64,000 nt of DNA from Balanoglossus misakiensis. Its lineage: Eukaryota > Animalia > Hemichordata. Shown piece by piece: positions 18,071 through 63,088 of the stretch; within the stretch, counting starts at the first letter, position 1, and each line of letters begins with the position of its first letter. The notes below the pieces were generated by a model that saw only the letters and a list, made by a program, of their open reading frames with translations, did not search any database and had not been told where the DNA came from. The position numbers were made by a program, and so were the translations under genes. Where the stretch lies: contig CM082584.2 in the NCBI GenBank assembly GCA_040954595.2, positions 7,707,919 through 7,771,918 of the forward strand. Direction: 5' to 3'.

Positions 18071-18071
<1 letters not shown>

Positions 18072-18101
<30 letters not shown>

Positions 18102-18452
18102 TGTATGTATGTATGTATGTATGTATGTATGTATGTATGTATGTATGCATGCATGCATGCATGCATGTATGTATGTATGTATGTATGTATGTATGTATGT
18201 ATGTATGTATGTATGTATGTATGTATGTATGTATGTATGTATGTATGTATGTATGTATGTATGTATGTATGTATGTATGTATGTATGTATGTATGTATGT
18301 ATGTATGTATGTATGTATGTATGTATGTATGTATGTATGTATGTATGTATGTATGTATGTATGTATGTATGTATGTATGTATGTATGTATGTATGTATGT
18401 ATGTATGTATGTAGGTGTGTAGGTGTGTAGGTGTGTAGGTGTGTAGGTGTGT
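18072..18452. repeat. (TATG)n microsatellite with a (CATG)n interruption and a GTAGGTGT tail
   Basis: Directly visible. Confidence 0.97.
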
Positions 18453-19013
18453 ATGCATATGCATGGATTGCGATTATTCAAGTGCAGTCGCTAGCAGATA
18501 ACCAGGTCAAGCTCGGTGGGATTGACGGCCACTGGTTTGATACGCGCCCTCTATGTCACATCTTTTACCATTAGGCCTAATTTACACCAGAGCCACTCCA
18601 AAATCAATAAATTAAATCTAAAATTTGGTCGATCTCTTTCGAATCTAAAGTGTTTATTATTTGTTGACGTCATACTCTCTGTCGAGACAATTACACAACG
18701 TATAATTTTTTTATAATCAAATTACATCGCAGAAATCTGCATATTCATTCGATTTGGCAGGATTTCAAAGAGGCCTTCCTTTCCGTAAGTATTTTTAACG
18801 AGCATACAACGAAGACCTGGATGTATGGGTGTATTAAATGCAGCTATCGACCGTTCCCCTTTTAGCAGACTGTATTAGCTTTAGAAATCGTCGATGAGCG
18901 ATGGGGGAGGGGAGGGAGGGAGGGAGGTGGGGGGTACAATGTAGGGGGGGATGGATGGTTAGGTTCATGGCGGCACTTGTAGATACGTGAAACTCGGTGT
19001 AAAGTACACTTAC

Positions 19014-30541: not shown

Positions 30542-30862
30542 TCACGTGTCGATGTCCTCCAGGTCGCCGACACTATCGTTGTTTGTCTCGTTCTGACCCT
30601 CGGTGTCGACGTCATAATCGATCTGCGTGTCTTCCGGTCCGTTTTCCTCCATGGTGGAGTCCGGCATGCCCCCGGCACCACCACCGGCAGCAGCAGCCGC
30701 CTCTGCCGCTGCGGCAGCCGCGTTCTCCTGCGACTCGAGTTGCGTCAGAAGCGCCGTGGCCTCTGCCAGCGTGTCCTGCGCGCTGACCGTCCTCTGGAAG
30801 GCTTTGCTGGAGGACGACTCGTTGGAGACCGAGGAGTGGGGACTCCAGTAGTACTCCGACAT
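30542..30862 (-). CDS. USP24: USP24 exon 51 (terminal coding exon)
   Basis: MSEYYWSP...SNE...[18 protein letters not shown]...stop TGA. Confidence 0.92.
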   Translation of the reverse strand: MSEYYWSPHSSVSNESSSSKAFQRTVSAQDTLAEATALLTQLESQENAAAAAAEAAAAAGGGAGGMPDSTMEENGPEDTQIDYDVDTEGQNETNNDSVGDLEDIDT

Positions 30863-33800
30863 CTGGGTAGTGAGAGGGGAGAAGCAAATGTGGATTTACA
30901 AGGCGTTTCAACGTCTATTGCTCACAACAAACATCTGCCTCATTTGCTTGCGCTGAGGCATCTCCACTGCCAGTAGTGTTATGATTGCGCTCTCTCAGTA
31001 TCTACCCCTGCGATAACACATCACACCCACGTTCCCGAAACCACACTTATCCATCTCTGAAAAAACTCAGAATGCTCCGAACTCATTCTGGTATTTTAAC
31101 AGCATTTTCTGTGTACAAATGTCTCCTTCCACACACATGTATAGGGGGAAAAACACCCATCCGCCACACCAAGTAAGGAGACTACCACATAGAAAGGATG
31201 AAGGCACCACCAGCAAATCCTACCTTCTTCTTCAGCCAGTTGACCGCCCATTGCCACCTGGGCGACGCGTCCATCAGATACTCCTTGGCTACCACACACC
31301 TATTGGCCAGGTTGACCAGGAACTTGATGCACTGGTACGCCCTCCTGCCATCGTTCACATTGCTGGATCTTATGATGGCTGTCAAGGCAACAAATGGTAA
31401 GAGCTCAGTAAGACTCAGCGCTTTTGAAATGCACTGAAAAAGTTTCTATTTCAAGGGATACCACGTGTGGTAAAAAAATGGCCACCCAGTAGCCATATTG
31501 GATCGCACTGCAAAATAAACTGATTTGCATATGTATGCCCTATTGTATTATCTTCATACATAGTTTGAAGCAAATAAGAAATGGCTTGTTGGCAGACGTG
31601 CACACAGACATATGAACAGAGCCCAAACTATACGTCCCCCGGACTTTGCCTGCAGGGACCTTTTAATGTTTCCTGGCTATATCTAGGTTTAGTGACATAC
31701 ATTGTTATAAAACAACATCATTATCTGTCTCCTAGGGTCTACTTAGCCCAGGAAGAAAAAAACAACGAACGGCTGAATATATATATCGGATGTCACATCA
31801 CTTAGCATTCGTCCCAATAGAAACCAAAAATTAATGATCTTCCCTGTTGAGAGAATCCTTTCCACGTCATGGAGAATAATTGGTACAGTTATAAAACCGT
31901 TTGACCTACAATAAATGACGGCCCACTTGGTATCAAAGTAGAGCTTTGTGAACATCAGCACGCTTGTTGAAATTTGAAAACCCTGACTTACAGAGAAGGC
32001 CGTCGTTGTTGGTGCCGTCGATCGTCCACTTCAGCCTGGTCAACTGCAGCGGGTCGTCCAGCAGCAGCAACTCCAGCAGCAAACCCAGGACGCTCTTCAG
32101 TTCGTTGGCCGGAACCACGCTGACCTGGGACTGAAAACGGAATTTGCGGAGAAGGGACCTTGCATTAGCATATGCAGCCTTGGAACAACATACATACATG
32201 TACATACATACAAAGTGAAGTACAAGAATGCAAAAATTTATTGTTGCGTAACAGTTGCTGATTTTTGATATCACTAAATTTTCCTGGTTTACAGAACATG
32301 TATATTATACATATACCAAATGGGACCTAACAAGATATATAACAGGCAACCTCACTGTTGCTAAAAGATGCCTATAGTTCAGCCTGTACTATCATATGTA
32401 ACCATCAAAACGCTCGATCTTGACATTTTCAAAGTGTGTCTTATTTACCTAGGGAAAAGAAGTTGTGTAAATCTCAGTTGATGTGTGAATCTCAGTGGAA
32501 GCACACTTTCTTTTTCTATCCGAATAAAAACCTATTTTTGTCATTATGGCTACTTGAAATTCCCAAGGGCAAATACACAAGATGAAATCACTAGACACTG
32601 TACATGTATATACTGAGCGTATCAACTTTTAAAAAATGAGGACAACATCATTTACACAATGCAATTACCACGCAGAGCTTGGCAGCCATTTTGAATTTCA
32701 AATTTCATACAATGTTGGTCGCATTCAAAATTTTGCAAGGTGAACCGTCAGAATAATCAAAATTTGCCATGAGCAAGATACGATATAAAGTCTAAGATTT
32801 CGAGTTTCAAGGCAAATATTACCTTAAAAAAAATCAATGCAAAGATCTCTCACCTTGATCATCATAAGTACCACAATAGAGAAGCTTTCATTGCAGAATG
32901 AGCAATACAACAGGACATCTTCTATTGCCGTTGATTGACTGGGAACTTCTCGACAAGCTAGAACAGCCTGGGAAATACAGAGATGACACATGAAACCATT
33001 GTCTGCTATCATACTGGCAACTGCACAGACGGACTAAGCCTTATTGTAGCAGCTTTATCTTTGTATGCTATTCAACTAATTTTCTGGCACAAGACTTTTA
33101 CATGATAATGTTTTTTTTTTATTTAAGGGATTGTTATGTACAGATGTTGGATTATCTAATTTATTTTGCTCCATGCTTACCTCCCTGACGTATCTCATGG
33201 AATCCTGTTGGAACAGTCGTACTTTGACCTCTGTTGGCAACGCTATCAAGGCCTGCGGTTGTCTAATGCTGCGTGGACTCCTGACTGTGCTTTGGCCTGC
33301 ATCTGTGGTTAAAAGACACATTGTGGGTGTGAGTGTGTACATGTGTTTCTTTACTTGTGTGTGTGTGTGTGTGTGTGTGTATTTGTTCTTACCTGTAGTT
33401 CTTTGGGACGAGATATCGCAGTGTAATACTAATATTGCTAGGGTAGAGTGCAAGAGACCAAAATCCCGGCTCTGTAACGAAGTCCACCTCCGTCGCATCA
33501 TGTCCTGCAGCAAAAAAATAATACAACAATGTGATGAGTTGACGTTCTGGTTTCTATGGTAAGGTTGGACCTCTGCCTTGAAATTCTGCTGACTGTATTA
33601 GACTTTTATGACTCAATAAGGCAGCAAAGACCTTTACAATTTTAGGTTGCAAGACTATCTGTAATTGACTCATCCATACTTACATCTCGTGACACATCCC
33701 TCCTTGTCAGAACAGGCATTGGTCCGAGCAGAAACATCAACAGTCGTTGGAACGTATTCCTTGCAAACAAATGCTGACAAGCCTTTAAACCCTGTAATAG

Positions 33801-36800
33801 ATACAATCAAACAGTCTACTTGACAGAAATTCTCAGTTTGTGTTTGTAAACAGATATCAACACGTAAAAAATATATTGTATACCTATCTACATGCAACCA
33901 GCATACACACACATACATACACATACATAGCATGTATAATGTACAAATGTACATACAGTCAAACCTGTGTTAGTGACCACCTCTATATAGTGACCACCTC
34001 TATATAGTGGCCACTTAGTTACAGTCCCTGTACAATTTACATGTGTATAAATTAACCTGTCTATAAAGACCACCTGTCTATAAAGGCCAGTTTGGTAAAG
34101 TCCCTTGACTGGTCACTATAGACAGGTTTGACTGTACATACATACATACATACATACATACATACATACATACATACATACATACATACATACATACATA
34201 CATACATACATACATACATACATACATACATACATCACACCTAGATGCATACATGTACATTTATAATATACATGTAAATACTTAATGCAAAGAACCATGC
34301 AATCATAGATATTTCACACTGTAATGGAAATCATGCATGGAAACCATTACTTCAACACACACACACCCCCCCCCCCCCCCCCCCATCCCCTACAAAATAA
34401 ACCTCTTCAGTTTAACGGCATTCAACAATAACTCCCCACTGTCCTAGGCGCTTGCCACACTTTCCGTCAAACTTACCATGTGCACATAGGTATCCAGCAA
34501 CCAGAAGTACTGGGCGCATGTCTTGCAGTTGTCCGGCACGTCCTTCTCCAGCATGGCCACCAGAAATTCCACCAATTCATCGAAGGACTTCACCTGAGAG
34601 TTGCCACCGTGGCCGTGGAACGATCGCAGGGTGCTTTCCAGTATCCGGCTGAAGGCGTCCCTGACTTCTTTGGTCGGACATTCTAAGAGGAATGGTCTGT
34701 CAAGGAAAAACACAGTTATTCTACATTATTCCAGTGTTAACAATTATCACTGTATACACACTGACAGTTGTAACCTCCTTGTATACAAATGTGTGTACTT
34801 TTATTAGAGTGCGAATACAGATTGACATGTTCGTGTATGTGTGCACCTACACACTGAGTGACTGTCTGTCATCTTTTCTGCCTGGATATCTAATCACCAA
34901 CATTCACCAGATAACTTACTTGATATATGAACTGCCCTGCTTGCTTGCAAAGTGGTCGACCAACCAGAAACAGGCTTTCTTACTCTGCATGATGATGGTT
35001 TCTATAGTACTGCACCATTCGCTGATTTCCAACCTGATGACACAAGAGTAATTGTGACTAGACATAATAAGGATGTAGTGAAGTATGTTTTATTCATCCA
35101 CATACAAGTATATGGGCAAATAAGAAGCATTTCTAATGAAGGGGAAAAAATACTCAATAGTTACCTGAGTTTCTTCTTAGTCCTGAAGTATGTGTTAAAC
35201 AAAAACTGTACAGATATTTTGAGACTAGTGACCGCCATCTCATCAAACTTCGGCAGGTGTTTATTCCTCTGAAAAAAATACGCACACATTGAGTTATTCA
35301 TTTTGGGGAGATTTTTACTCTCATATCCTACAAACGAGATGGAAGTTGTGTGTGGTCGAATGTTGATTCACCATATATCCACATGTAGAATAACATAAAC
35401 AGTGCCTTGTATCAAACATAATTAAAAGAAAAAGGGCAGCGAGAGAGAGACTTACCGAATTACAAAAGACCAGCTGCCTGACAAACTTGAAATATTCCAC
35501 GTTGTGCACGCCTTTGTTTTTGATGAACCGGAGATTCTCATCCCGGATTTCCTGCTGGATGCTGGCCGGCATCTGATCCAGGAATATGCCCCTCTTTTCT
35601 CCCTTCCTGACCAGGGCTGTCAGCATGGAAAGGCCGTCGGAATCGTGGCGGGGCGACGACTCCGGTGAACTCAGCTCGGATACACTGGAATGGAGAGGAA
35701 AGTGTCAATTTCAGACTCAGGGAAGTTATGTGAAATTTATTTGTCTTTTGTGTGTGCCTGCTTTGGGGATTTTTGCAACACACATTATGACTAAAATCTG
35801 AGAGAACATCACTCACACTTGCAACAAATATTCAGAAATTAGATTTCTTTCAATCCAACAAAAACACCAGATATTTCTTGGCAGTGAGAAAAAAATAATA
35901 AAACAAGTAGATGTGATTGCCCACTATTACATTGCTGGGCACAGGAGCAAACGTAAAGTTAAAATGTATTTCATAACCGCAATGTGAACATAACCTATCT
36001 AGTACAAATGACACTATAGGGTATTAGTATTCTCTATGGAGAACACTGACCCACATTACATTACATCAAAACTCTTCTTTCCTCTCAATTTCCCCCCCCC
36101 CCCACAACTTTGGTCAGAAACATGACCTGTAATGTCACTCACACTTGTATGTCGCCCTCGCTGTCGTGTTTGAGCAAGGCTGCCCTGGTGGCTCTAGGGG
36201 GCGGTTTCCTTAGCGACAGCTCCGGCGTCCTGGTGCCTTCCGTCTTCTCATAGAAGAGCATGTAGCCGTTCCAGTAGCGTTGCCTGGTCTCCGGGTACGA
36301 TGTTGCTGCGAACAGACGACGAAATAATCGTATAATAATAATAATAGTGAGTTGTTATAAGTTACATAGTGCACATACTGTAAAACACTTTATTTTCGCG
36401 AGTCGAAATTTTCGCGATATCGAGAGAGGCCACTGTTTCGCGAGTATTAATTTTCGCGTTCTCTTATTTCATTCAGTGCATTCGTTATCTTAAAAAAAAT
36501 TACGCGACTTTTTATTTTCACGCTATTTTGGCTCTCGCGTATTTCACGAAAATTTATTGCTCGCGGAAATAAAGTGTTTTACAGTATCCACAAATTGCAC
36601 TCAAAGCCCTTTACAATTATAAACAGCAGTGTTTCATCTAAAACGGGGGATGAAGAGATTCCCCCCCCCCCCCACTGTTGACACCCCCTAGCAATTTGTC
36701 GGTCACTTACACTGGTCGTACACCTTGGCCCTGTACGTGCCGCCAAAGCACTCAGCTTCCACCGAGCCGTCATTCATGTCGAATTCTTCCACGATGGTGT

Positions 36801-51800: not shown

Positions 51801-52897
51801 AAATGCCAACTTGGACCTACATATCACTGGGATAAAGGCCCCATCACTGCTACAATTATCTACACCTGCATTTGAATCATACCCACATACATGTACCCTA
51901 CCTTGTGCTTGAGATCATTTTCTTCCAGCCCCTGTATGTAGGCAATAGCCTTCTCCATCATGGCCTGCAGTATGGGTGAAACCCTCTGCACGTTCAGATA
52001 CTCGGCACAAACCCCAAAGGGATATAACAGGGCAGCCATCAGCTGGGGAAAAATACATGTAGAAATCAACGTGAGATCTCCAACCCCTCTCTGTGATTGT
52101 CAGACATCCTCTTTTAAAAATATTTACACCAAAACATTTTATTTTGTGTTACGAGTCTATATATATCCGGTTTTTGGGAAAGAAACTAAAACAGTTGTCC
52201 TCTCAATAAAATCTACATAAAAGAGCAAAGGGTGATCGAATCATACAATCAATATTTGGGACAAACATCAATTTGTATCCTAGTTCACATCACCTAAATT
52301 TCAAGAAATCAGTCTTTTTTGTTGTTGAAGATAGTATAATGTGAACATGAGGATGAGTGCAATGGGGAGGGATATGGCACCACAGTCTTGTCCACACGAT
52401 TCGGGGTTTGGTAAAACAACAAACTGTAGAGTATATAGGGGAGCTTATAGTGTTCAAACCAACTTACTGGTGCGTCAAGTTCCTCTGTAGATTCCAGCAT
52501 CCTATCTCTGCAAGACTCAAAACCTCCCTTTTCCGCAAACTGCATTGGGAGCAAAAAAAATGATAATCAGTATAATAGAGATTGAGAAAATTACAGCATC
52601 GGTTTGACTTTGACACTGACTTATAGTTTATGTACCGTATGAATTTTATTTTGCTTACCCTGTTGATAAGGTTAACGAGCAGACCGTGGGGCTCCCTGTA
52701 TGTGCTGAACGCTGGACTGACTGCATAGGTCTGGTTAGCACCAAATATGTCCTCGTACCGTATCCGGTCCCAGCGCTTTGCCCGGTTCTTGAAGTGAAAC
52801 TCTGTTTCTGGGTCGAAAGCCTGCGGTAGCAAGAAAAGCAATGATGGTGTTAAATAGTGCAGTGGTTGCATTGGGCTATTTTTGTTTAATCATTTTT

Positions 52898-52944
<47 letters not shown>

Positions 52945-53030
52945 TATCACCATCCTATTGTCATCATCATCATCATCATCAGCATCATCAGCATTATCAT
53001 TATCACCATCCTATTGTCATCATCAGCATT

Positions 53031-53062
<32 letters not shown>

Positions 53063-53078
53063 TATCACCATCCTATTG

Positions 53079-53111
<33 letters not shown>

Positions 53112-53160
53112 GCATCATCAGCATTATCATTATCACCATCCTATTGTCATCATCAGCATT

Positions 53161-53204
<44 letters not shown>

Positions 53205-53287
53205 TATCACCATCCTATTGTCATCATCATCATCATCATCATCATCATCAGCATCATTATCACCATCCTATTGTCATCATCAGCATT

Positions 53288-53328
<41 letters not shown>

Positions 53329-53497
53329 TATCACCATCCTATTGTCATCATCATCATCATCATCATCATCATCAGCATCATCAGCATTATCATTATCACC
53401 ATCCTATTGTCATCATCATCATCATTGTCATCATCATCATCATCAGCATTATCATTATCACCATCCTATTGTCATCATCAGCGTCATCATCAGCATT

Positions 53498-53529
<32 letters not shown>

Positions 53530-53772
53530 TATCACCATCCTATTGTCATCATCATCATCATCATCATCATCATCAGCATTATCATTATCACCATCCTATT
53601 GTCATCATCATCATCATTGTCATCATCATCATCATCAGCATTATCATTATCACCATCCTATTGTCATCATCAGCATCATCATCATCATCATCATCATCAT
53701 CACAATCATCATCATCAGCATCATCATCATCATCGTCATCATCACCACCATCATCATCATCATCATCACCAC

Positions 53773-53819
<47 letters not shown>

Positions 53820-56800
53820 CCGCCAACACAACCACTACTAGCATCACCTCCTCCACCCCTAGAAAGACCATCGAGAAACATCGACCCCTCACCATTCCCA
53901 GCACGTTGAGCAAACCCACAGGGGTGGGGTCGTACTTCAGCCGGGCTGCTATGAAGTCGACCAGCAGCTGCAGCATTTGGTATATCCCCTCCTGGATCTC
54001 CGTCCCCCAGCGGTGCACAGCGCCGGACGTCAGCAGTTTCTTGAAGGCCTCTGGCATACACCGGTCGACGAACCGCATGCAGTTCTCGTCCGCATCCATC
54101 AGACCTACCAGGGAATATGCAGAATAAAGTTCTTGTCAGCTGCCACAGATAGCATGTGCACGCAGGGAGCACAACACTGTGTAACCCGGTTTACAAAATA
54201 AACCATATCACATGACTATCACATGGTTTATTTTGTAAACCGGGTTACAACTGTAACCACATTCTTGCTTTTACATGCTTTTAGACAACTTTTCCGATTC
54301 CACATAACTGATATTCTCATAGCCTAGTTTTCAAACTGTCAGCCACAGGAATCCATGAGTGCACACTGCTGGCTATAGACATGTCGAAATGTGCAGTAAA
54401 GACAACAGTGAGGGTACACTGTGGGTATGATCTTGAGATTATGTGGCAATTTGTATAGGAGAAATAACACCGAGACTTCAATAGTTCTAGCATTGTGGTA
54501 GAGTGTTTTTTTCTCAAGACGATGTGGGCACTACTCTTAAATTGACTCTGTATCTATAATCTGGATTCATGTCCACCTTTCTTTAGCATTACTCTGGATA
54601 AAACACACAGTACTTAGCATGTACAGTTAACTGGCAAAGATGACAGCATTGAATAATTTATGTCATATCTGTTCATGGGGACATTCTGGCTGGCAAACTA
54701 AAACAGACAGCGACTGCACAACTAATGGACCGTACAGAACTATAACTGGACAGATGTAGTCCGCAATGAGCGGTAAAAGATTCATGCCGTCCACAGTCTA
54801 TTCATTCCCCACTGGTTTCACCGACAACACTTTTCTTGTACTGACACATACAGCCAGATTCCACAGGGCTTTCAAAAATGCACAAGGACCCACGCAGGAA
54901 GGCAATGCGGTTTAATCAGAACATGCAGCCCACTAAGTTGCTATCTCGGGTTATTTAACCCTTATATAATACAGCTTCAGTCAGAGAGGAAATATGAGCC
55001 TGAGATCAGTGTTTCTGATTCCAGGAAGGCTGGTGGACCCCACTAGTGGATTCCTAATCCTAACAGGAAGACTGGTGGTTTAATACTTGTACTATAAATT
55101 TACTACATACTGTACATTTTTCACTGGGTTTTAATTACACTAGTTTCACAGATACATAAAATCAGCTAAATAAAATCCCAGCGAAAAATGTAACATTACA
55201 ATAGAACTCATAGTTATATACTAGCTAAATCTGTGAATTTCAAATCTAGTGAATGTGCCCCAAATACCAAAAACGTTGAAATTAAATTCCAGAGAAAAAG
55301 GAATGCTTTTGAAGTATCTCATGTTGGACAGACTAAAGGTATACAGTCAGAGTTATCATGGAAGTGGAAATCTTGCAAATCATAGACTTTCATCAGCAAT
55401 CTCAACTGCTCTGATTTTGTGCTAAGGTTTTATTGGCAGAATGCTTGAAGTACAGGGTCAGCTATGCACATTAAGCCACAGTTACCATGGAAAGTTGAGA
55501 TCTACCCAATCAAGGATTTTTGTGGGGTGGCCAAGCGAAAAAAAGTGCCACCACACATTGTTTAGACACACCATTTTAGACATATATTGGCAGATGTAAA
55601 TTTGAACAATTGTATACCTTCAAGATAAACACGACACTGCCAGCAGGTTGCTAGGTTACAGACTATCTCCATCAGTACGGCTCACAAAGTAACTGAAGGA
55701 AATCTTTACCTTCCTCGGCTAGCCTGGTGGCTCCCATGATGCACTTGCCCAGAGATTCTTCCTCTTTGTACGGGATAGACCACTGCTCAGTGAACACTCT
55801 GCCTTCCAGTTCGTACAGATTAGTGGTCGGGAATTCATTGGAAACCGCGATGTTGGCCTCTTCCTCTGCTTTGTTCTGGCCATTCTGTGTGGGGTCCTCC
55901 TGTGGTGTACGGAGAAACAGGAGTCTTACATGTACATGTGTATGCATACAACTTTCACATCCACAATTCATATGCAACAGGTAAGGCACGATGCAAATAC
56001 AAACAGCATCATCATGCATGATCAACAGACGCACATACACGTACATGTGCATCTGTTGATCATCATCATGTATGTGGTTTGATTACATGCATGTTCATAT
56101 CAATCCCATGTCATTTTTTGTATCACTGTCATGTGACTTCTGCGGTGCCTTTCTGTCATACAACACTGCAATAGTCAGCATGCAACGGATCAATAACCAT
56201 ATCCCATGAATCAAAAATAGTACAAACGAGTGCCGGCTTACCACAAAATCTACAAGTACTACATCATGATCATGATCATGTATGTAGCCAGGCAATGCAT
56301 ATAAATACGATGCTCAGAAAATGTTAACGCCCATTTTAATTTATCCCTCTTTTGACAGCAATATCACGACCTACAACAATTTACCAGCATGTTTCTGTTG
56401 TCACAAGAAACCGGTTTGGCATTTTCTAAGCAAGAGTGACCAAGCGGGGAGGCGATGTGTGCGTAGACTGTGTGAGAGCCAATGGAAGCCGAAACGAAAC
56501 TAAAAGTCCTTTTGGGTGACGTCGGAGTTGATGGCGACTGCCCTATGTTCCTCGTTGGTCATTTGGTGTCAACAACTTCAACATACACTGATATCGTAAA
56601 AACTAATAACTACGAGCTTGACACCTGCCATATGACGACGATATTAAAGTTGGATCGCCGAAGTTCGCGTTTTGTAATATATACATACATGTACTGGTTG
56701 GCAACGTTGTTTTCGAATCAGTTCTCGATTAAATGGAAATCCGTGTTCCCTCATCGGCTGCAATTGCTCATGATAGTTGATTGATCTAGAGTTCTTTGCC

Positions 56801-57244
56801 ATTTCATTTATTTCACACCCAACAATATCTTAATGATCATTCAGACAACGTGTGATGAGCAAATTTTCAACCGCAGGGACCTGTGCGCCTGCGGTAGGGC
56901 CCACCACACCCACGCCTCCCAAACGTGTCCCGCCAGTCAAGATCGATAGTCGCTGAAGCTATGGCACGACTTACCTCAGACACGGGTTCTACCGCCTCGT
57001 CGTAGCTGGGAGGGGGCGGATCCCCTCCCCCGCTACCCCTGTGAGTGCTCGTTGAGGTTCCCTGCATGTCTTTCATCTCCACATCGTCCAATGTGTCATA
57101 GCTGGAACCCGGTTGCTCATTGGTGAGAATGGCAACCGCTTCGTTCACGTCGTTCCTACCCAGGCGCAGAGCTTTGCGTATTTCGCTTACGTCAGAAAAT
57201 CCCATACTCAAGAGGGTCTGCAAGTGTTCTTCGTTTGGTTCCAT
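30542..57244 (-). CDS. USP24: Ubiquitin carboxyl-terminal hydrolase 24, whole spliced CDS span, 51 coding exons, about 2617 aa
   Basis: Hand-spliced GT-AG exons keep frame from ATG 57244 to the stop at 30542; lengths sum to 7854 nt. Recognisable USP24 motifs: [14 protein letters not shown] (UBA-like), [49 protein letters not shown], Cys box [22 protein letters not shown], His box [25 protein letters not shown]-terminal [10 protein letters not shown] and [11 protein letters not shown]. The UBA-like N-terminus favours USP24 over USP9. Confidence 0.95.
31224..31378 (-). CDS. USP24: USP24 exon 50
   Basis: [11 protein letters not shown]...[11 protein letters not shown]. Confidence 0.93.
31992..32130 (-). 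CDS. USP24: USP24 exon 49
   Basis: PANELKSV...DPLQLTRL. Confidence 0.9.
32854..32967 (-). CDS. USP24: USP24 exon 48
   Basis: AVLACRE...[10 protein letters not shown]. Confidence 0.9.
33181..33302 (-). CDS. USP24: USP24 exon 47
   Basis: AGQSTVRSP...RYVRE. Confidence 0.88.
33357..33380. repeat. (TG)n microsatellite
   Basis: Directly visible. Confidence 0.9.
33393..33504 (-). CDS. USP24: USP24 exon 46
   Basis: [26 protein letters not shown]. Confidence 0.9.
33684..33791 (-). CDS. USP24: USP24 exon 45
   Basis: [24 protein letters not shown]. Confidence 0.88.
33954..34136. mobile_element. MITE with TA ends and CAGTCAAACCTGT terminal inverted repeats (Tc1/mariner/pogo type)
   Basis: TACAGTCAAACCTGT...ACAGGTTTGACTGTA with internal GACCACC repeats; it abuts the (ATAC)n tract. 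Confidence 0.85.
34135..34235. repeat. (TACA)n microsatellite
   Basis: Directly visible. Confidence 0.95.
34477..34696 (-). CDS. USP24: USP24 exon 44
   Basis: [12 protein letters not shown]...[14 protein letters not shown]. Confidence 0.92.
34920..35033 (-). CDS. USP24: USP24 exon 43
   Basis: [11 protein letters not shown]...ACFWLVDHF. Confidence 0.9.
35165..35268 (-). CDS. USP24: USP24 exon 42
   Basis: [15 protein letters not shown]. Confidence 0.92.
35456..35684 (-). CDS. USP24: USP24 exon 41
   Basis: [22 protein letters not shown]...DENLRF. Confidence 0.92.
36143..36305 (-). CDS. USP24: USP24 exon 40
   Basis: [11 protein letters not shown]. Confidence 0.9.
36376..36586. mobile_element. 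MITE family A copy 1
   Basis: TIRs TACTGTAAAACACTTTATTTTCGCGAG / CTCGCGGAAATAAAGTGTTTTACAGTA, rich in TTTTCGCG words. Confidence 0.88.
36711..36850 (-). CDS. USP24: USP24 exon 39
   Basis: [13 protein letters not shown]...ECFGG. Confidence 0.94.
37036..37247 (-). CDS. USP24: USP24 exon 38 (catalytic His box)
   Basis: [25 protein letters not shown]. Confidence 0.96.
37448..37567 (-). CDS. USP24: USP24 exon 37
   Basis: [17 protein letters not shown]. Confidence 0.94.
37974..38112 (-). CDS. USP24: USP24 exon 36
   Basis: [12 protein letters not shown]...[12 protein letters not shown]. Confidence 0.94.
38294..38376 (-). CDS. USP24: USP24 exon 35
   Basis: [16 protein letters not shown]. Confidence 0.93.
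38553..38774 (-). CDS. USP24: USP24 exon 34
   Basis: [13 protein letters not shown]. Confidence 0.94.
39119..39238 (-). CDS. USP24: USP24 exon 33 (catalytic Cys box)
   Basis: [22 protein letters not shown]. Confidence 0.96.
39395..39539 (-). CDS. USP24: USP24 exon 32
   Basis: [15 protein letters not shown]...MHHQ...KEWE. Confidence 0.92.
39674..39785 (-). CDS. USP24: USP24 exon 31
   Basis: [19 protein letters not shown]...FVP. Confidence 0.9.
39909..40094 (-). CDS. USP24: USP24 exon 30
   Basis: [12 protein letters not shown]...LTGHLRLL. Confidence 0.9.
40531..40592 (-). CDS. USP24: USP24 exon 29
   Basis: [20 protein letters not shown]. Confidence 0.9.
40876..40966. mobile_element. Family B MITE copy
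   Basis: CCCTTTCAC...CCCATTGTTTTCTATGGTAAAGTTGGACCT; ends next to the exon 28 donor. Confidence 0.7.
40972..41206 (-). CDS. USP24: USP24 exon 28
   Basis: [20 protein letters not shown]...RGASQ. Confidence 0.92.
41595..41753 (-). CDS. USP24: USP24 exon 27
   Basis: STGSASSD...[13 protein letters not shown]. Confidence 0.92.
41772..41862. mobile_element. About 90-bp piggyBac-like MITE (family B)
   Basis: TTAACCCTTTCAC...CCCATTGTTTTCCATAGTAAGGTTGGA...GGGGTGAAAGG; TTAA plus CCCT termini. Confidence 0.7.
42348..42534 (-). CDS. USP24: USP24 exon 26
   Basis: TMPVPDFT...[11 protein letters not shown]...QSST. Confidence 0.9.
43067..43277 (-). CDS. USP24: USP24 exon 25
   Basis: FLLCGQSL...[10 protein letters not shown]. 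Confidence 0.9.
43631..43821 (-). CDS. USP24: USP24 exon 24
   Basis: VLSGKLMP...YSICLQLA. Confidence 0.92.
43942..44076 (-). CDS. USP24: USP24 exon 23
   Basis: SDDNSS...[12 protein letters not shown]. Confidence 0.9.
44430..44514 (-). CDS. USP24: USP24 exon 22
   Basis: [22 protein letters not shown]. Confidence 0.9.
44617..44780. mobile_element. MITE family A copy 2 (inverted, internally deleted)
   Basis: Aligns to the reverse complement of 36376..36586 with an internal deletion of about 47 nt. Confidence 0.88.
44814..44968 (-). CDS. USP24: USP24 exon 21
   Basis: DSLRIEE...[10 protein letters not shown]...[10 protein letters not shown]. Confidence 0.9.
45247..45363 (-). CDS. USP24: USP24 exon 20
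   Basis: [13 protein letters not shown]...RADD. Confidence 0.88.
45624..45722 (-). CDS. USP24: USP24 exon 19
   Basis: [14 protein letters not shown]...TNDKI. Confidence 0.88.
45889..46069 (-). CDS. USP24: USP24 exon 18
   Basis: [11 protein letters not shown]...[11 protein letters not shown]...FTIM. Confidence 0.92.
46206..46372 (-). CDS. USP24: USP24 exon 17
   Basis: [18 protein letters not shown]...PSPS. Confidence 0.92.
46425..46492. mobile_element. Family B MITE copy (inverted, partial)
   Basis: GGACCAAACCACGGTGGTGAAGGGGTTAA. More decayed copies lie at about 42221-42320, 45008-45112 and 51241-51259. Confidence 0.6.
46655..46795 (-). CDS. USP24: USP24 exon 16
   Basis: [19 protein letters not shown]...KLKK. 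Confidence 0.92.
46913..46962. repeat. Compound (GACT/GACA/GACG)n microsatellite
   Basis: Directly visible. Confidence 0.85.
47413..47607 (-). CDS. USP24: USP24 exon 15
   Basis: [14 protein letters not shown]...GASNF. Confidence 0.92.
48712..48843 (-). CDS. USP24: USP24 exon 14
   Basis: [29 protein letters not shown]...DRE. Confidence 0.92.
49149..49298 (-). CDS. USP24: USP24 exon 13
   Basis: [13 protein letters not shown]...DGRYTHRE. Confidence 0.92.
49797..49877 (-). CDS. USP24: USP24 exon 12
   Basis: [14 protein letters not shown]...KEK. Confidence 0.9.
50049..50306 (-). CDS. USP24: USP24 exon 11
   Basis: [14 protein letters not shown]...IDDIKK. Confidence 0.92.
50540..50647 (-). CDS. 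USP24: USP24 exon 10
   Basis: [14 protein letters not shown]...LIQK. Confidence 0.92.
50777..50880 (-). CDS. USP24: USP24 exon 9
   Basis: [12 protein letters not shown]...IWKLQ. Confidence 0.92.
51066..51180 (-). CDS. USP24: USP24 exon 8
   Basis: LTKLIDDS...LSIALE. Confidence 0.92.
51273..51431 (-). CDS. USP24: USP24 exon 7
   Basis: KSGSVSDLL...[13 protein letters not shown]. Confidence 0.92.
51690..51783. mobile_element. Family B MITE copy
   Basis: TTAACCCTTTCACCACTGTGGTTTGGTCC...TTTTCTATGGTGAAGGTGGACCTCT. Confidence 0.7.
51902..52042 (-). CDS. USP24: USP24 exon 6
   Basis: [17 protein letters not shown]...DLKHK. Confidence 0.92.
52468..52539 (-). CDS. USP24: USP24 exon 5
   Basis: FAEKGGF...ELDAP. 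Confidence 0.9.
52659..52820 (-). CDS. USP24: USP24 exon 4
   Basis: [13 protein letters not shown]...LVNLINR. Confidence 0.92.
52898..53820. repeat. (CAT)n array with a higher-order unit in USP24 intron 3
   Basis: CAT runs punctuated 12 times by CATTATCACCATCCTATTGT. Confidence 0.95.
53893..54104 (-). CDS. USP24: USP24 exon 3
   Basis: [33 protein letters not shown]...VLGM. Confidence 0.92.
54180..54249. repeat. Perfect 27-bp inverted repeat with a 16-nt loop
   Basis: TGTAACCCGGTTTACAAAATAAACCAT at 54180-54206 and its exact reverse complement at 54223-54249. Confidence 0.9.
55107..55316. mobile_element. Decayed MITE resembling family A
   Basis: TACTGTA start, degenerate end TTTTGAAGTA, internal A-rich GAAATTAAA words. 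Confidence 0.35.
55710..55899 (-). CDS. USP24: USP24 exon 2
   Basis: EDPTQ...[10 protein letters not shown]...LAEE, CAG/GTAAA. Confidence 0.92.
56975..57244 (-). CDS. USP24: USP24 coding exon 1 (UBA-like)
   Basis: [18 protein letters not shown]...EPVSE, donor GTAAG. Confidence 0.93.
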
Positions 57245-58968
57245 GGTGCCCCTTCCTTGCACGCAGTAAGGGTCACCGGAATTTTGAATGAAAACTAAAA
57301 AACTTCGCTCCGACTTGATAAATATTCAACACTTCCCTCTCCCCGTCAGCGCCATCTTGGAAGAGGGACGCATCATGGGTAACCATTATTTGAACGTAGG
57401 TGGCGCTATGGCCAAGTCGCTTTCTGGACAAAATGTTAACTTTATTAATGAGCGGTGGGTACTTACGGTAAAATGATTCAAAATACAAAACTTTCATACC
57501 TGTCAAAAAGTTTTGATTCGACTTAAAACAAGCGGATCCATTGGTACACATCCTATAAAAATCATCTTTCGGAAACGAAAGTACAGAAGACGAATGTGAA
57601 ATGGATAAAAGTAGTGATGCATCAACGAATATTCACGTGCCTTTTGACCACAATACAGACACATGTAATTTTCCCTGTTGCCAAATACCACCCTGCTTCG
57701 ACTACCAACTTCAGCGGCAACTTGAAAAATTCCATTTGCTTTTGTTTGGACTTTTTAATATCGTGGGGCTGTTGCAAACGCGATTTCTCTGATACTGCAA
57801 TCTTGTGCTAACTTTGATCCATTTTTCAGAGATGCATTTTTGCGAGAACATACATATTAAGGGTGCACGTGTATTAATGCCCAGTTCTTCATTCATACAG
57901 AAACTTCGACTTTGGTGCCATAAGGCATTTAGGGACTATGGACTCTGCCCACATGTCACGTCCTGCACGCGTGTGACCGACAGATCGCATGATTCGATAG
58001 GTGAAGACTTTGAACCTTCTGTGGCACTACAACGCCTAGATGACGCATGCGCTGACTTCCTACCAACGCTGTAGCGAATACTTCGGGCGGATCTTCCAGA
58101 TCACAAGCTATCACTTTCTGACGTAAGGTAAGGTTTACGAAGATTTGGATGCGTCGATTATTTCAGATAATTCCTTCAAGACAATCATGATATCATTGTG
58201 GTGCGCGTAGAACATAGAAAATGCCATCTGGGTGAAAAATCCCGCAATTTGTTTCGCCCAAAGTGCTATATCAAAGTTTTTTTTTAATACTTCCTGGTTC
58301 CGCCTTCAGTACAGTAAACTTCTGTAGGTAAATTTCTGTTCAAAGCCGAACAGTAACAATGTTTATAGTTTATTTTTTCATAGTTTACCAAACCTTTATC
58401 CCCGGGCCGCTTTATTGACAATGGAACACAAAGCAATATATTACACAAATTTCCTTTTCATTGACGCGATTCAAGTCTGAAATGACCTCATTATGACTTT
58501 TTACATGACTGAAGGTGGTAAAACTCCTTTTAATGTCATATTTTAAAATAATTGCCATTTCAAGATACCGCGATTGCTTTGCATTATGTCGGATCGCTGA
58601 AACTGCACGTTTAGAATGTGAATTTATGAACAATTTTCATGATTTGCGTTTGCCACTGGATAAAAAACAGTCATATAAATTACTATGTACGATTTGTTTT
58701 CGTTTATAATTTTCAGTCTGTCATTAGACATGAATAGTGACTCGTATAAATCTCGGCATATCGACATGATCAGTTCATGTAGGCTACTAAATTACTACAG
58801 AATGTTTTCCCATAAAATTTACTGACGGTTTTTAAAAGCCCGAGACTCAGACAAGGCAGATGAGTCACTAATTCTTGACGCACTTTAGGAAGAAAGCGCT
58901 GTCTTTTTATCTTTTATCAATGTGTCTATAATAACGGTATCCAATATTCATCTTTAATTTACCATCAG
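57245..58968. promoter_or_regulatory. Divergent promoter region between USP24 and TRIM-DTC
   Basis: Head-to-head ATGs about 1.74 kb apart. USP24 side: CCCTCTTCC followed by the YY1-like AAGATGGCG (57350-57367). TRIM side: CRE-like and ETS-like words at 58040-58305, candidate non-coding exon donors at 58128 and 58328, and an acceptor at 58968. Confidence 0.6.
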
Positions 58969-58985
58969 ATCAACATACCAACAAA

Positions 58986-60383
58986 ATGGCCGAAGCAATG
59001 CCTAGTGGGAGTTTCCTCCAACAGCGCATTGATGAGAAAATCCTCTTCTGTCCGATCTGCCAAGAACGGATGGTGAAACCCAAAAGTCTACCCTGCATAC
59101 ACAGCTTCTGTGAGAAGTGCCTCGAACAATGGGTGCGACAGAAAGGAGGCAGACTTGAATGTCCGACGTGTCGACGAGCGTGTCCACTCCCGCAGGCAGG
59201 GGTCAAAGGTCTCACTAACAATTTTTTCATCAATGACCTGATTGAACTATTTGACGAGTTGCAGGGCAACCCCGGCGAGACCGTATGCGATTTGTGTGCC
59301 AGAAAAGCAAGCTGTTGGTGTCAAGAATGCGCCCAGTTCTTTTGTGATGGGTGTCGGCGTACTCATTTGAAAGCAAGGGTGTCAAGAAACCACAGATTCA
59401 TGTCTATGGAAGAATACAACGCCGTGGCTGAGTCTGGACGTGATCACCTCATTCGTCCCCGATTCTGCGCGGCGCATCAAGACAGTCAGCTCAAGTTATT
59501 CTGCCAACACTGTCAGGTGAATGCGTGCATGGAATGCGCAGTGACCGTTCACAAGGGCGGGGCGCACAATCTGGTGTCGTTAGAAGATGCGTTGGAAAAG
59601 TTCGACCCGGAGTTGCAAGACAAAGAAAATGCAGTTTCAAATAGGGTATGTTCACTCCGAGAAAAACAACAAGAGGCAACAAAAAATATAGAATATATTG
59701 ATAAAAACGGAAGTCGGGTTGTGCGACAAATCAAACATAAAATAGCAGAAATGAGAAATCTATTGCAGCAAGAGGAAGACAGGTTGGTGGAAAAGGCTTT
59801 GGCAATGAGTGTACAGAAGAAGAAAAACATGCAAGCAGAACTGGACCAGATAGAATTCGATCTAGCCTCTGCAGAAAATATGTATGTCTACACACGAAAT
59901 CTGCGGACTCACGGCAATGCAGCTGATATACTTTCCCAGAAGAAAGAACTGATGCAGAGATTGAATGAAATCACAAATGATCGTTCAACAGACCGATACG
60001 TACCTCCACAAAACATTCGCCTTGTTTATCAAGAGAACAGCCAGTGCATGCAACTTTCTCTTGGAGAAATAATTGACCAATCAGAAGTGACACATGCTGC
60101 ACGTGTCAGCCAATCAGTTGATCGACAGATACTACAACAGCAACCTGAGGCAACGACCGAGAAATCTGTGATTAAAAGAGAAATGACCGACCAATCCAGG
60201 GTGTCTAGTATGTCACGTGTCAGCCCACCAACTGTCGAGAGAAAACAACAAAGACCTAAGACTCTGGCCCAGAAGACTTCTGCTCCTGGAGTTGTTACTG
60301 GTAATATGCCAACGGGAACTATGGACGTCAGGGTTCGTAGATATCATACTATTAAATATACGTTTGCAGATGGAATACAAGGA
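58986..60383 (+). CDS. TRIM-DTC coding exon 1 (RBCC, linker, start of DTC)
   Basis: Long ORF; donor GGA|GTAAGT at 60384; ATG in AAAATGG context. Confidence 0.92.
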
Positions 60384-63088
60384 GTAAGTATAGTACGATG
60401 AAAACGGTTTGAGATGCACAGAAGGAATGTACTGACTATCGATTTGTTTATCAACATAGTCAAAAGAAAACACGCTTTTTTGCATTCAAGGTTAGACTTG
60501 TCCCAAGGTCAGCAAAATTTGTTCCGATTTAATATACGTGTGTGGAGTGAACGCATTAAGTTGTGGCATCGCGTCAGTGATGAGCAGTAACTGAAAGTAC
60601 CGAAACTCACCAAAGTCAAACAAACGTACGAAAGGTGTTGAAAAAATCAAGAGACGGCGAACAACTAAATTAGTCAATAATCTTTAAAAAGAAAAACACG
60701 CCAAGTGACTGGTGGGTAAGTCTAATTCAATGTTTAAATGAAAAGTCGTGACTAGACCGTAATGCATGCATTTTTAGTGATAAGAATGTACCACCCCAAA
60801 CACATTTTGTTTCTTATCAACCGTACTGATGAAAACCTCACTGGTCATACATTCATTCCGTGCATCTCAAACATTTTTCATTGTAGTTAATGTTTTGATG
60901 CCGTCGTCGTTGTGTATATGTATATGTATGTGTATATATACATGTATGTGTTTGAAGTTAATGGTTTGGCTGTTAGTTCGCCCATGCGACCCTTGCTTCT
61001 CCGATTTTGATTTTTTAAAACTTTTCCCATCTAAACATCACCACAGCATAAGATACAATGTGACGAAGAATGCTGAAAATTGGTCAGCGGCGTTCTTGAA
61101 TGGGTGACCCAAAAGATCTAGTACATGTTACATGTATTGCAAAATAACAGAAAGTTCGTTCGGGAATCATCGATCGTAAATGTCCTGATATTGGTAATTT
61201 CATTGTTGTAGCGTTTCACAGCCCTATGAACACAATCACCAAGAGCATGAGCATTCAAAAATATTTCGACTGACGCATTGTTATCCTACCCAATCCTGAC
61301 ATGTATGTCGTGAAATGGTTTTCGCTTATTCTACTAAAACTTTGGTGAATTCGCAGTGTCTAATCGAAAGGTGATTGCTAATATCACGAAGACCCGTATA
61401 TTTTGATACGAACTTGTAACAACGCTAACAATGTAGAATCGATAAACTCAATGACGGAAAAAATGAAACTAGTCGCCTGCGTAAATCGTATGCTACATTA
61501 GAGTAATATAACGAAATTTTGCATCGGACTTTGAATTCGTCAATGTTTCCTCACAATAAATGCTACAGTACCGATACATGTACTAAAATTCAACTCGAGA
61601 CTTCCAATCACATGATATATATCAAGTCGTGATTTTTATTGTACCTATAGACTGAAGTAAATCATTCATCACATTCTTCATTTGCATCACAATTTGATGC
61701 GTGAGGACACAATCCATGATCCGTTTCCTGAATTCTTGACCAAAATATTTCCATCACTTCATATCATTTTGGTAAAACGCCCTGATCACACTCTGCGAAT
61801 ATGAAGAGCAATTTCCAAAACTCCAAAGTCACGTGATTTGATGCTGCTTGTGTTGCAGCCTGAACATCCAAACCCTGGACAGCCATACAGTGGTGGTCAG
61901 TTCATGGGATGCTTACATGACGATTACGAGGGTCGTGAAGTACTGCGGCTGTTGAGGATTGCATTTGATCGCCGACTGACTTTCACCATCGATGGGAAAT
62001 CAAACGAAGTAGTCTGGAATGGCATAACACATAAGGAATACGAATGGTAAGTTAGATTTCCATTATTGCTATCTCATCGCACTGACACCTACTTGATTGA
62101 TTTTAAAAACATTGCGTTACTTATTTTGTGGATTATGTCAGAAATTGATAGGAATGTTTATGTTGTGTGATGTTGATGGCGAACTGGTGAAAAAAATATT
62201 GTAGGTTGGAATACTTATTTATAATTTGAGACAACACCGTATCGGTGTTAGGAAAATTGACATGTAAGTTACGTGAAATACATCGAGATCCCTATATGTG
62301 ATGAACAGCTAGATCGATCGCTGGTGAGTAAGCTGGGTCCGCTTTGGCACCGACCGCGCGCCGGAAGTTTTACCTATGTTAAATGAACTATTCCACGTTC
62401 ACCAGGATCGTACAAAATAAACACAATATGCCATTTTGGGTCCAAACAAACGACAGACTTCAGATGTAACAGCTTATTGGACGTTACATGTCTAGTGATG
62501 CGCAAGAAATTTATGGAAATTATTTCAACTCATGAGACATTTAGCAGCTTTGCTTGCGTAAATCTGACGTTTATCCTCACATGCTGCGCATTATTTTAGA
62601 GTTTACAAACGGAGTTGTACACATTCCAAACGCTAACATACAAACGGGTATATATTAGTGCCAACTGTAGAATAGGATTTTTTCTATATCATGTGACTGG
62701 GCAACGGTGAGATCCAATCATAGAGTGAGGTGTTATTTTTATCACGTGACATTTAACGTAAAACTTCCGTCACAGAAGAGCACCATGTGTGTTTGTTATA
62801 AAAAAAATCTTCGCACTGTTCTCTGGTGTATATTTGACATCTCCATAAACGCGATAATCCTTAACTGCTGGCAACCAACAGCGGTTCGGCATCACCGACC
62901 ATCAAAGTCATTGCATTGTATTAGCTACGCAACGCGTACCTTACACTTATGGGAGTGAAACCATTTCGTTCACAGCGGGAATACAGTACTATATGTTTGT
63001 TTATTTTTCCAGGTTAATTTTCAGGAATGAGTGGCAATCTTATTGTGCACAACTGAAGAAAGAATTGGCTGCGAAAGGAGTGGTGTAA
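58986..63088 (+). CDS. TRIM (RING-Bbox1-Bbox2-coiled coil) protein with a C-terminal Deltex (DTC) domain, about 553 aa
   Basis: join(58986..60383,61859..62046,63013..63088) = 1662 nt in frame. RING CPIC...PCIHSFCEKC...CPTC; B-box1 CDLC...CQEC...CDGC...H..H; B-box2 CAAH...LFCQHC...C.EC...H; coiled coil; then DTC motifs VTGNMPTGTM, GIQGPEHPNPG, EGREVLRLLRIAFDRRLTFTI, VVWNGITHK, KELAAKGV. Confidence 0.88.
61859..62046 (+). CDS. TRIM-DTC coding exon 2 (DTC core)
   Basis: TTGCAG|PEHPNPGQPYSG...VVWNGITHKEYE, donor GTAAGT. Confidence 0.9.
63013..63088 (+). CDS. TRIM-DTC coding exon 3 (DTC C-terminal helix)
   Basis: TTTTTCCAG|...SYCAQLKKELAAKGVV stop. An in-frame alternative acceptor lies 12 nt downstream (63025). 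Confidence 0.85.

What the first reader, a model, noticed from the sequence alone, without database searches (positions are those of the whole stretch)
58986..63088. TRIM-Deltex chimera: an RBCC E3 ligase ending in a Deltex C-terminal (ADP-ribose/NAD-reader) domain
Seen: a clean spliced ORF with RING, two B-boxes, a coiled coil, a linker and then clear DTC motifs. The ORF track splits the gene, so the fusion is hidden there. Established: TRIM C-terminal classes use PRY-SPRY, NHL/filamin, PHD-bromo, COS-FN3, MATH, ARF or TM domains, not DTC. In Deltex proteins the DTC sits directly after a Deltex RING, binds NAD+/ADP-ribose and supports ubiquitylation of ADP-ribose or nucleic acids. Here no RING precedes the DTC; the only RING is about 370 residues away. 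Inference: domain shuffling made DTC the substrate-recognition module of a TRIM dimer, possibly a lineage-specific immune or ADP-ribose-directed ligase. I cannot exclude that similar fusions already exist unremarked in invertebrate annotations.
Basis: partly seen in the sequence, partly recalled or inferred. Interest (0 to 1): 0.82.

Follow-up and report, generated by a model that had tools for sequence, protein, structure and literature searches.

The report
TRIM ligase with disarmed Deltex tail
This gene, likely from an acorn worm, joins the front end of a TRIM ubiquitin ligase to a Deltex tail domain that has lost most residues used to grip ADP-ribose, so the tail likely now recognises some other target; it belongs to a seemingly undescribed group of TRIM-Deltex fusions in acorn worms and amphioxus.

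Summary
Three GT-AG exons (58986-60383, 61859-62046, 63013-63088) give a 553-aa protein: RING, two B-boxes, coiled coil, disordered linker, DTC. A Ptychodera flava RefSeq protein (XP_070563511, 551 aa) aligns end to end at 48%. No RNA run was listed, so the junctions are unconfirmed.

The 'ADP-ribose/NAD reader' reading is not supported. The DTC fold is kept (ortholog model, Z 17 to DTX3L), but the pocket is not: R535 is F, the S567-T569 phosphate loop is deleted, catalytic H582 is T, T585 is E, and the H594-GYP segment is replaced. Four relatives share these losses. The DTC is still conserved (54% identity, against 38% for the coiled coil).

The gene is not a one-off. I found 15 database genes with RBCC+DTC, named ones from hemichordates and amphioxus. 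Eleven keep a second, Deltex-type RING before the DTC. The likely history is fusion of a TRIM to a whole RING-DTC, then loss of the pocket, then loss of that RING. Best guess: a lysine-directed TRIM E3 with a repurposed DTC as target receptor. I found no paper on this architecture.

The parts
58986..60383 (+). Coding exon 1 (aa 1-466): whole RBCC, linker and first ~30 aa of the DTC in one open frame
   Evidence: tblastn with ortholog P0123 47% over 467 columns
59049..59174 (+). C3HC4 RING (aa 22-63): C22, C25, C37, H39, C42, C45, C59, C62, plus W49 and R63 at the linchpin position
   Evidence: Pfam PF00097 E 2e-10; 83% identical to ortholog
59283..59396 (+). B-box 1 (aa 100-137)
   Evidence: PF22586 E 5.5e-6, 26.8 bits, just under the cut-off of 27; 61% to ortholog
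59457..59582 (+). B-box 2 (aa 158-199)
   Evidence: PF00643 E 2.6e-11; 67% to ortholog
59583..59990 (+). Coiled coil and hairpin helix (aa ~200-335)
   Evidence: ortholog AF2 model has one helix 197-307 and a second 310-328; 38% to ortholog
60081..60293 (+). Ser/Gln/Thr/Val-rich linker (aa 366-436) with no Cys, where relatives carry a second RING
   Evidence: pLDDT under 50 for 367-435 in ortholog model; 25% identity; Cys count
60294..60383 (+). DTC, N-terminal part (aa 437-466)
   Evidence: 57% to ortholog; alignment with intact DTCs; no Pfam hit on its own
60384..61858 (+). Intron 1, phase 0, GT-AG; in-frame stop at 60399-60401 if retained
   Evidence: no RNA evidence
61859..62046 (+). Exon 2, DTC core (aa 467-529). 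F481 replaces DTX2 R535 (61901-61903); phosphate loop deleted after I510; W519 kept (62015-62017); T523 replaces catalytic H582 (62027-62029); E526 replaces T585 (62036-62038)
   Evidence: PF18102 E 5e-16; residue map
62047..63012 (+). Intron 2, phase 2, GT-AG
   Evidence: no hidden DTC exon found
63013..63088 (+). Exon 3, last DTC helix and stop; H594-GYP segment replaced; E546 (DTX2 E608) kept at 63062-63064; alternative in-frame acceptor at 63025
   Evidence: (32% to ortholog)

Best explanation
This gene encodes a TRIM-type protein (RING, two B-boxes, coiled coil) ending in a Deltex C-terminal domain that has lost most of its ADP-ribose-binding and catalytic residues, and it likely works as an ordinary lysine-directed ubiquitin ligase whose repurposed DTC likely selects a target other than ADP-ribose. 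Shown: the architecture, an intact and highly conserved RING, a conserved DTC core, and the pocket losses shared by five sequences. Inferred from TRIM biology (recalled): the coiled coil forms an antiparallel dimer, each RING activates E2~ubiquitin, and the C-terminal domain on its ~70-residue flexible tether brings the substrate. Inferred history: an acorn-worm TRIM56-like RBCC fused to a whole DTX3/DTX3L-type RING-DTC. One duplicate lineage lost the pocket while still carrying the second RING (P0275), and this gene's lineage then lost that RING, which no longer had a ligand to act on. The new ligand is unknown; the conserved Arg-to-Phe/Leu change suggests a hydrophobic, probably peptide, partner. 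An innate-immune role is a guess from the company the clade keeps.
For: End-to-end ortholog P0123 (XP_070563511): 48% over 564 columns. RING 83% identical, with all 8 Zn ligands and the linchpin-position Arg. Pocket residues in the 5 derived DTCs against 39 other full-length DTCs: R535 0/5 vs 37/39, S567 0/5 vs 37/39, T569 0/5 vs 39/39, H582 0/5 vs 31/39, T585 1/5 vs 38/39, H594 aromatic 1/5 vs 36/39. Of 48 DTC columns conserved in at least 85% of the other DTCs, 29 are kept by at least 4 of 5. All 11 kept by at most 1 of 5 fall at R535, the S567-T570 loop, T585 or the G595-L602 segment (counted). DTC identity to the ortholog is 54%, against 38% for the coiled coil and 25% for the linker. The ortholog's DTC model has pLDDT 92 and matches 3pg6 at Z 17.2, rmsd 1.2 over 112 residues. 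His mutants block ADP-ribose chemistry but not lysine discharge; RING and DTC must be in cis with an exact linker. Relatives show the intermediate states: second RING with intact pocket (P0128, P0130), second RING with H582R (P0001, P0004), second RING with dead pocket (P0275), no second RING with dead pocket (window, P0123, P0129). The RBCC tree and the DTC tree both pair P0275 with P0129 and place the window with P0123; in the DTC tree the fragment P0179 joins them.
Against: No ligand or substrate was identified; the receptor role comes from analogy to other TRIM C-terminal domains. W578 (4/5) and E608 (3/5) are kept, and the segment after H524 aligns poorly, so F532 or a nearby aromatic could still stack a base. 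The order of events rests on parsimony over midpoint-rooted trees. The derived DTCs are long branches, and the DTC bootstrap had not settled. H582 loss is not tied to loss of the second RING (P0001, P0004, P0276 and P0278 keep that RING). Folding was done on the ortholog, not on the window's own product. There is no transcript evidence.
Confidence: 0.5

Rival explanations
1. Regulatory partner or decoy: the protein heterodimerises through its coiled coil with active RBCC-RING-DTC paralogues, or competes for their DTC-binding partners, and tunes them instead of picking its own substrates.
For: Active-looking paralogues exist in the same genomes (P0128 in Ptychodera, P0130 in Glandiceps). The DTC surface outside the pocket is conserved. 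The ortholog and the dead-pocket P0275 have consecutive accessions on a contig of the same length, suggesting a tandem pair.
Against: The RING is the best-conserved part (83%), which favours its own catalysis. The coiled coil is the least conserved folded part (38%).
Confidence: 0.18
2. The DTC still binds an adenine-bearing ligand or a nucleic-acid end, without the pyrophosphate contacts or the catalytic His, and recruits the RING to RNA/DNA-bound proteins.
For: The adenine-stacking Trp is kept (W519), and aromatics follow the His in the window's product and P0179. The DTX3L-type pocket takes single-stranded nucleic acid ends (PMC11460948 passages).
Against: T585, which bonds adenine N1, is lost in 4 of 5. 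The segment after the His is not conserved among the five. The domain is not basic overall (K+R 15, D+E 14). P0179 has lost the Trp.
Confidence: 0.13
3. One reading: the DTC reads ADP-ribose or NAD+ and the N-terminal RING of the dimer ubiquitylates ADP-ribose or ADP-ribosylated targets.
For: The DTC fold is intact; W578 and E608 are kept; sister RBCCs carry macrodomain, WWE-PARP and intact RING-DTC tails.
Against: Arg, Ser, His and Thr contacts and the phosphate loop are gone and the H594 stack is doubtful. RING and DTC in trans, or with a linker three residues longer, give no ADPr-Ub.
Confidence: 0.08
4. The DTC is a vestige that only folds stably; the protein acts as a tail-less TRIM56-like RBCC.
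For: The derived DTCs have long branches; many RBCCs of the same clade show no DTC.
Against: The DTC is more conserved than the coiled coil, the losses are focused on the pocket, and the same Phe/Leu replacement is held in all five. Two introns are kept in frame.
Confidence: 0.08
5. The gene model is wrong: the transcript stops at 60401 and exons 2-3 are an unlinked remnant.
For: No RNA run was available to test the joins (a blank, not evidence). Saccoglossus model P0127 ends just after the DTC start motif.
Against: Canonical splice sites, an open frame, and collinear 48% identity to an independently annotated 551-aa protein across both junctions.
Confidence: 0.03

Closest known systems
TRIM/RBCC E3 ligases, nearest solved relatives TRIM2, TRIM3 and TRIM56 (PDB 8amr, 8ams, 5jw7)
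   Same: RING, B-box 1, B-box 2, coiled coil in order at the N-terminus, encoded in one exon; RING and flanking segments align closely.
   Different: The C-terminal domain is a DTC, not filamin/NHL, SPRY, PHD-bromo, MATH or ARF; DTC is not among the C-terminal domains in the passages seen of PMC2533329 and PMC3503706, where 'deltex' occurs 0 times.
Deltex E3 ligases DTX3/DTX3L and DTX1/2/4 (Pfam PF18102; PDB 3pg6, 6y3j, 6y5p)
   Same: DTC fold (Z 17.2 and 16.8) of the DTX3/3L type, without the two-residue insert of DTX1/2/4; W578 and E608 kept.
   Different: No RING within five residues of the DTC; R535, S567-T569, H582 and T585 lost, H594-GYP replaced; no WWE, KH, RRM or macrodomain found by Pfam; an RBCC in their place.
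Automatically annotated RBCC-(Macro)-RING-DTC proteins: Ptychodera XP_070540305, XP_070540314, XP_070540329; Glandiceps XP_077992667; Branchiostoma XP_078684009, P0276-P0278
   Same: RBCC at the N-terminus and DTC at the C-terminus; the hemichordate ones share the window's RBCC clade (support 100).
   Different: They keep a second RING next to a complete DTC, and several keep the full pocket; the amphioxus ones sit in two other RBCC clades.
Ptychodera flava XP_070563511 (TRIM56-like, 551 aa), with XP_070563512/3 and Glandiceps XP_077982039
   Same: Probable ortholog and close paralogues; same pocket losses.
   Different: Database records only, with no DTC in their names; XP_070563512 still has the second RING.

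Membership tests
TRIM/RBCC | N-terminal RING with 8 zinc ligands | tested here: met
TRIM/RBCC | One or two B-boxes, type 1 before type 2 | tested here: met
   (100-137, 158-199); B-box 1 scores 26.8 against a cut-off of 27
TRIM/RBCC | Coiled coil directly after B-box 2 | tested here: met
   110-residue helix in ortholog model; aligns to the TRIM3 and TRIM28 coiled coils
TRIM/RBCC | Antiparallel dimer and E3 activity | not testable with these tools
   recalled family property; needs SEC-MALS and E2~Ub discharge
Described TRIM C-terminal class (SPRY, NHL/filamin, PHD-bromo, COS-FN3, MATH, ARF, TM) | Carries that class's C-terminal domain | tested here: not met
   Pfam finds only a DTC after the coiled coil
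Deltex E3 ligases | DTC domain fold at the C-terminus | tested here: met
   (fold tested on the ortholog)
Deltex E3 ligases | RING immediately before the DTC with a five-residue linker | tested here: not met
   no Cys in the 90 aa before the DTC; linker rule from PMC7500938
Deltex E3 ligases | Catalytic His-Glu pair (DTX2 H582/E608) | tested here: not met
   T523 for His, E546 kept
Deltex E3 ligases | Pyrophosphate contacts (R535, S567, loop amides) | tested here: not met
   F481; loop deleted
Deltex E3 ligases | Adenine sandwich W578 / H594(Y,F) and T585 | tested here: inconclusive
   W519 kept, T585 is E, and F532 falls at H594 in a poorly aligned segment
Deltex E3 ligases | Binds ADP-ribose/NAD+ and ubiquitylates its 3' hydroxyl | not testable with these tools
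   needs ITC and an in vitro assay

The most novel reading that the evidence does not exclude
Invertebrate deuterostome TRIM scaffolds repeatedly captured ADP-ribose machinery (RING-DTC, Macro-RING-DTC, WWE-PARP), forming an unrecognised TRIM class. Its intact members are two-RING ligases that could put ubiquitin on ADP-ribose with one RING and build chains with the other. The branch in this window has turned the DTC into a receptor for a new, non-ADP-ribose ligand, which would reveal a second function of the Deltex C-terminal fold.
Probability: 0.3. Interest if true: 0.72.

Novelty: new variant of a known kind. Interest (0 to 1): 0.52.

Why it matters
TRIM classes are defined by their C-terminal domain, and DTC biochemistry is known only from RING-adjacent human Deltex proteins. 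This family adds a C-terminal type that I could not find in print and provides a natural series from intact RING-DTC to pocket-dead, RING-less DTC within one clade. The window's gene is the end state. It lets one ask what a DTC does without ADP-ribose chemistry. The score is tempered because domain shuffling onto TRIMs in amphioxus is already known (MATH example, PMC3503706 passages), the proteins are already in RefSeq, and no function is shown.

Tried and rejected
RNA support: no RNA holder was listed, so no reads were laid; this is a blank. No whole genome is held, so paralogues and synteny in this genome were not examined beyond the window; tblastn with 15 relatives found no second TRIM-DTC gene in the 64 kb, but the window ends about 900 bp after the stop. 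A hidden micro-exon restoring the missing loops or the second RING: none found in the three forward frames of either intron (best DTC-profile E 0.084). Complex prediction of the ortholog's DTC on its own RBCC dimer: no answer, score 0.00, which is neither support nor evidence against. ESM Atlas: generic TRIM clusters below 0.9 for the whole ortholog and plain DTC clusters for the domain; no RBCC+DTC cluster among those shown, which says nothing about clusters under 50 members. A single origin of all RBCC-DTC fusions: an AU test rejected holding the hemichordate clade with both amphioxus clades (p 0.0015), but the group was named after seeing the tree, on 36 chosen rows of 166 with the LG+G4 model. 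A single clade of hemichordate rows without the second RING was only marginally rejected (p 0.045). Earlier scan notes: nothing for this place, these words or the ortholog sequence. Literature: eight searches for the architecture showed no title or abstract opening that describes TRIM-DTC; several listed only part of their hits (30 of 36, 25 of 34, 20 of 30, 15 of 17, 15 of 85).
Full report
Observation. The ATG is at 58986. Exons 58986-60383, 61859-62046 and 63013-63088 are flanked by GT-AG sites and join into 1662 nt, 553 aa plus stop. Both donors read GTAAGT, and the last acceptor has the richest pyrimidine tract of 110 YAG sites in the locus. An in-frame alternative acceptor at 63025 would remove four residues. 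Pfam finds a C3HC4 RING (22-62), two B-boxes (100-137, 158-199) and a DTC on exon 2 at E 5e-16. The DTC starts inside exon 1, in the same frame as the RBCC; that piece has no Pfam hit alone but is 57% identical to the ortholog. No RNA run was listed and no genome is held, so the junctions are inferred.

Independent support for the model. A search with exon 1 returned 3 hits among 4626 candidates. The best is Ptychodera flava XP_070563511 (P0123, 551 aa, named 'TRIM56-like'), which carries RING, B-box and DTC. It aligns to the spliced model at 48% over 564 columns, across both junctions. Identity by region is RING 83%, B-boxes 61% and 67%, coiled coil 38%, linker 25%, DTC 54%. An AlphaFold2 model of P0123 shows the zinc fingers, a helix at 197-307, disorder at 367-435 and a folded DTC. 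The DTC alone has pLDDT 92 and matches DTX3L 3pg6 at Z 17.2 and DTX2 6y22 at Z 16.8, with the next hit at 5.3 (Foldseek agrees). All named close relatives are enteropneust hemichordates, so the window is probably from an acorn worm. That is inferred, and the species was not sought.

The DTC pocket is gone. In DTX1, NAD+ is held by W577 and H593 (adenine stack), T584, H581, R534, S566 and the amides of 567-568 (PMC7500938 section 7). DTX4 uses the same set (PMC13714323 parts 1-3 of 5). H582/E608 of DTX2 are catalytic (PMC10810221 section 22; PMC7615817 passages; PMC11460948 passages). I set DTX2 numbering by counting along the 6y22 alignment and applied it through a fish DTX2 (P0012). From 166 DTC slices I kept 48 after removing isoforms and thinning at 90%, and set aside 4 partial rows. 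That left 5 derived DTCs (window, P0123, P0275, P0129, P0179) and 39 others. Retention, derived against others: R535 0/5 vs 37/39 (Phe in four, Leu in one), S567 0/5 vs 37/39, T569 0/5 vs 39/39, H582 0/5 vs 31/39, T585 1/5 vs 38/39, H594 aromatic 1/5 vs 36/39, W578 4/5 vs 39/39, E608 3/5 vs 34/39. In the window's product these are F481, a deleted loop after I510, W519, T523, E526 and E546. Of 48 DTC columns conserved in the others, 29 are kept by at least four of the five; the 11 kept by at most one all lie at R535, the phosphate loop, T585 or the segment after H594. The loss is focused on the pocket while the core is held. The segment after H524 aligns poorly, so the fate of the H594 stack is uncertain. 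Deltex chemistry also needs RING and DTC in cis; separate domains or a three-residue linker insertion abolish it (PMC7500938 and PMC11460948 passages).

It is one state of a family. Among 169 RBCC-bearing rows gathered also carry a DTC. Removing the window's model and three isoforms leaves 15 database genes. Eleven have a second RING just before the DTC and four do not (P0123, P0129, P0147, P0159); P0141 and P0159 have partial DTCs and may be faulty models. Named members come from Ptychodera flava (5), Glandiceps talaboti (2) and Branchiostoma (5); three were not looked up. P0277 and P0255 add a macrodomain, and other RBCCs of these clades end in WWE-PARP (P0134) or a PARP14-type RRM (P0222). 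This is a lower bound biased to my queries: one search showed 150 of 14,147 hits and one search scored only 7997 candidates. In RBCC trees the window pairs with P0123 (100) inside a clade supported at 100 whose named members are all hemichordate, while amphioxus fusions fall in two other clades and P0255 in a fourth. An AU test rejects joining the hemichordate and amphioxus clades (p 0.0015; group chosen after seeing the tree, 36 of 166 rows), so the fusion probably arose more than once. The five derived DTCs form a clade (96/89, bootstrap unsettled, long branches) that includes P0275, which still has the second RING. The simplest reading is fusion to a whole RING-DTC, loss of the pocket, then loss of that RING. 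The trees are midpoint-rooted, so this order is inferred. Against a tight coupling, P0001, P0004, P0276 and P0278 lost the catalytic His but keep the second RING.

Mechanism. The RING has all eight zinc ligands, W49 and an Arg directly after the last Cys, and is the best-conserved region. I therefore expect a working lysine-directed E3 in a coiled-coil dimer (family property, recalled), with the DTC on a flexible tether acting as a receptor for a new partner (0.5).

Comparison with what is known. It meets the sequence definition of a TRIM but fits no described C-terminal class. It works unlike a Deltex and fails that family's tests for an adjacent RING, the catalytic His and the phosphate contacts. 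Eight literature searches (judged from listings only) showed no description of RBCC-DTC. 'Deltex' occurs 0 times in two TRIM evolution papers (PMC2533329, PMC3503706; passages seen). 'TRIM' and 'B-box' occur 0 times in the main text of a 2026 DTX3L evolution preprint (10.64898/2026.04.23.720386; passages and section 5), whose Figure 1d and supplements I could not see and which might show such an architecture. PMC2770060 (passages) added nothing. Subscription journals are largely not searched. Unchecked AI notes from this scan report pocket-dead DTCs in vertebrates and sea squirts; I did not test them and do not count them as support.

Verdict. The feature is real and the architecture appears undescribed, though it is present in automatic annotations. 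New variant of a known kind; interest 0.52.

Noticed in passing
window 56870-57244 (-) and exons further down the minus strand (e.g. 55771-55980, 53900-54133, 35321-35704, 30542-30895): A large multi-exon gene on the minus strand starting with a UBA domain (Pfam E 9e-8) lies head to head with the TRIM gene, about 1.7 kb from its ATG. Its peptides look like the deubiquitinase USP24 (recalled, not tested).
   Followed up: partly
window 58127-58133 and 58950-58968 (+): A pyrimidine tract and AG 17 nt before the ATG, and a GTAAGG donor-like site near 58128, suggest an upstream non-coding exon and a possibly shared bidirectional promoter near 57900-58100.
   Followed up: no
P0128, P0130, P0139, P0255 (P0277 has R535W): Two-RING TRIM-Deltex proteins (RBCC, in some a macrodomain, then RING-DTC) with the His/Glu pair, Trp, Thr and phosphate loop intact; candidate ADP-ribose-directed TRIM ligases.
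   Followed up: partly
P0134, P0132, P0222, P0215: Related RBCCs end in WWE-PARP, a partial OGFr_N, a PARP14-type RRM/NID, or DUSP-Ubl: frequent tail swapping, often with ADP-ribose or interferon-type domains. Some may be merged gene models.
   Followed up: no
P0003 (Saccostrea XP_061194319) and P0147 (Branchiostoma hybrid): Other DTCs without an adjacent RING also lack the catalytic His (Gln in both) while keeping the loops; possible independent cases of the same decay.
   Followed up: partly
P0199 (Anabarilius grahami ROL42413): A fish protein model with three RING-DTC repeats; may be merged tandem genes.
   Followed up: no
window ~18000-18480 and ~52790-53900: Long simple repeats (a 4-base repeat and a 3-base-rich tract) inside introns of the minus-strand gene; ordinary.
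   Followed up: no
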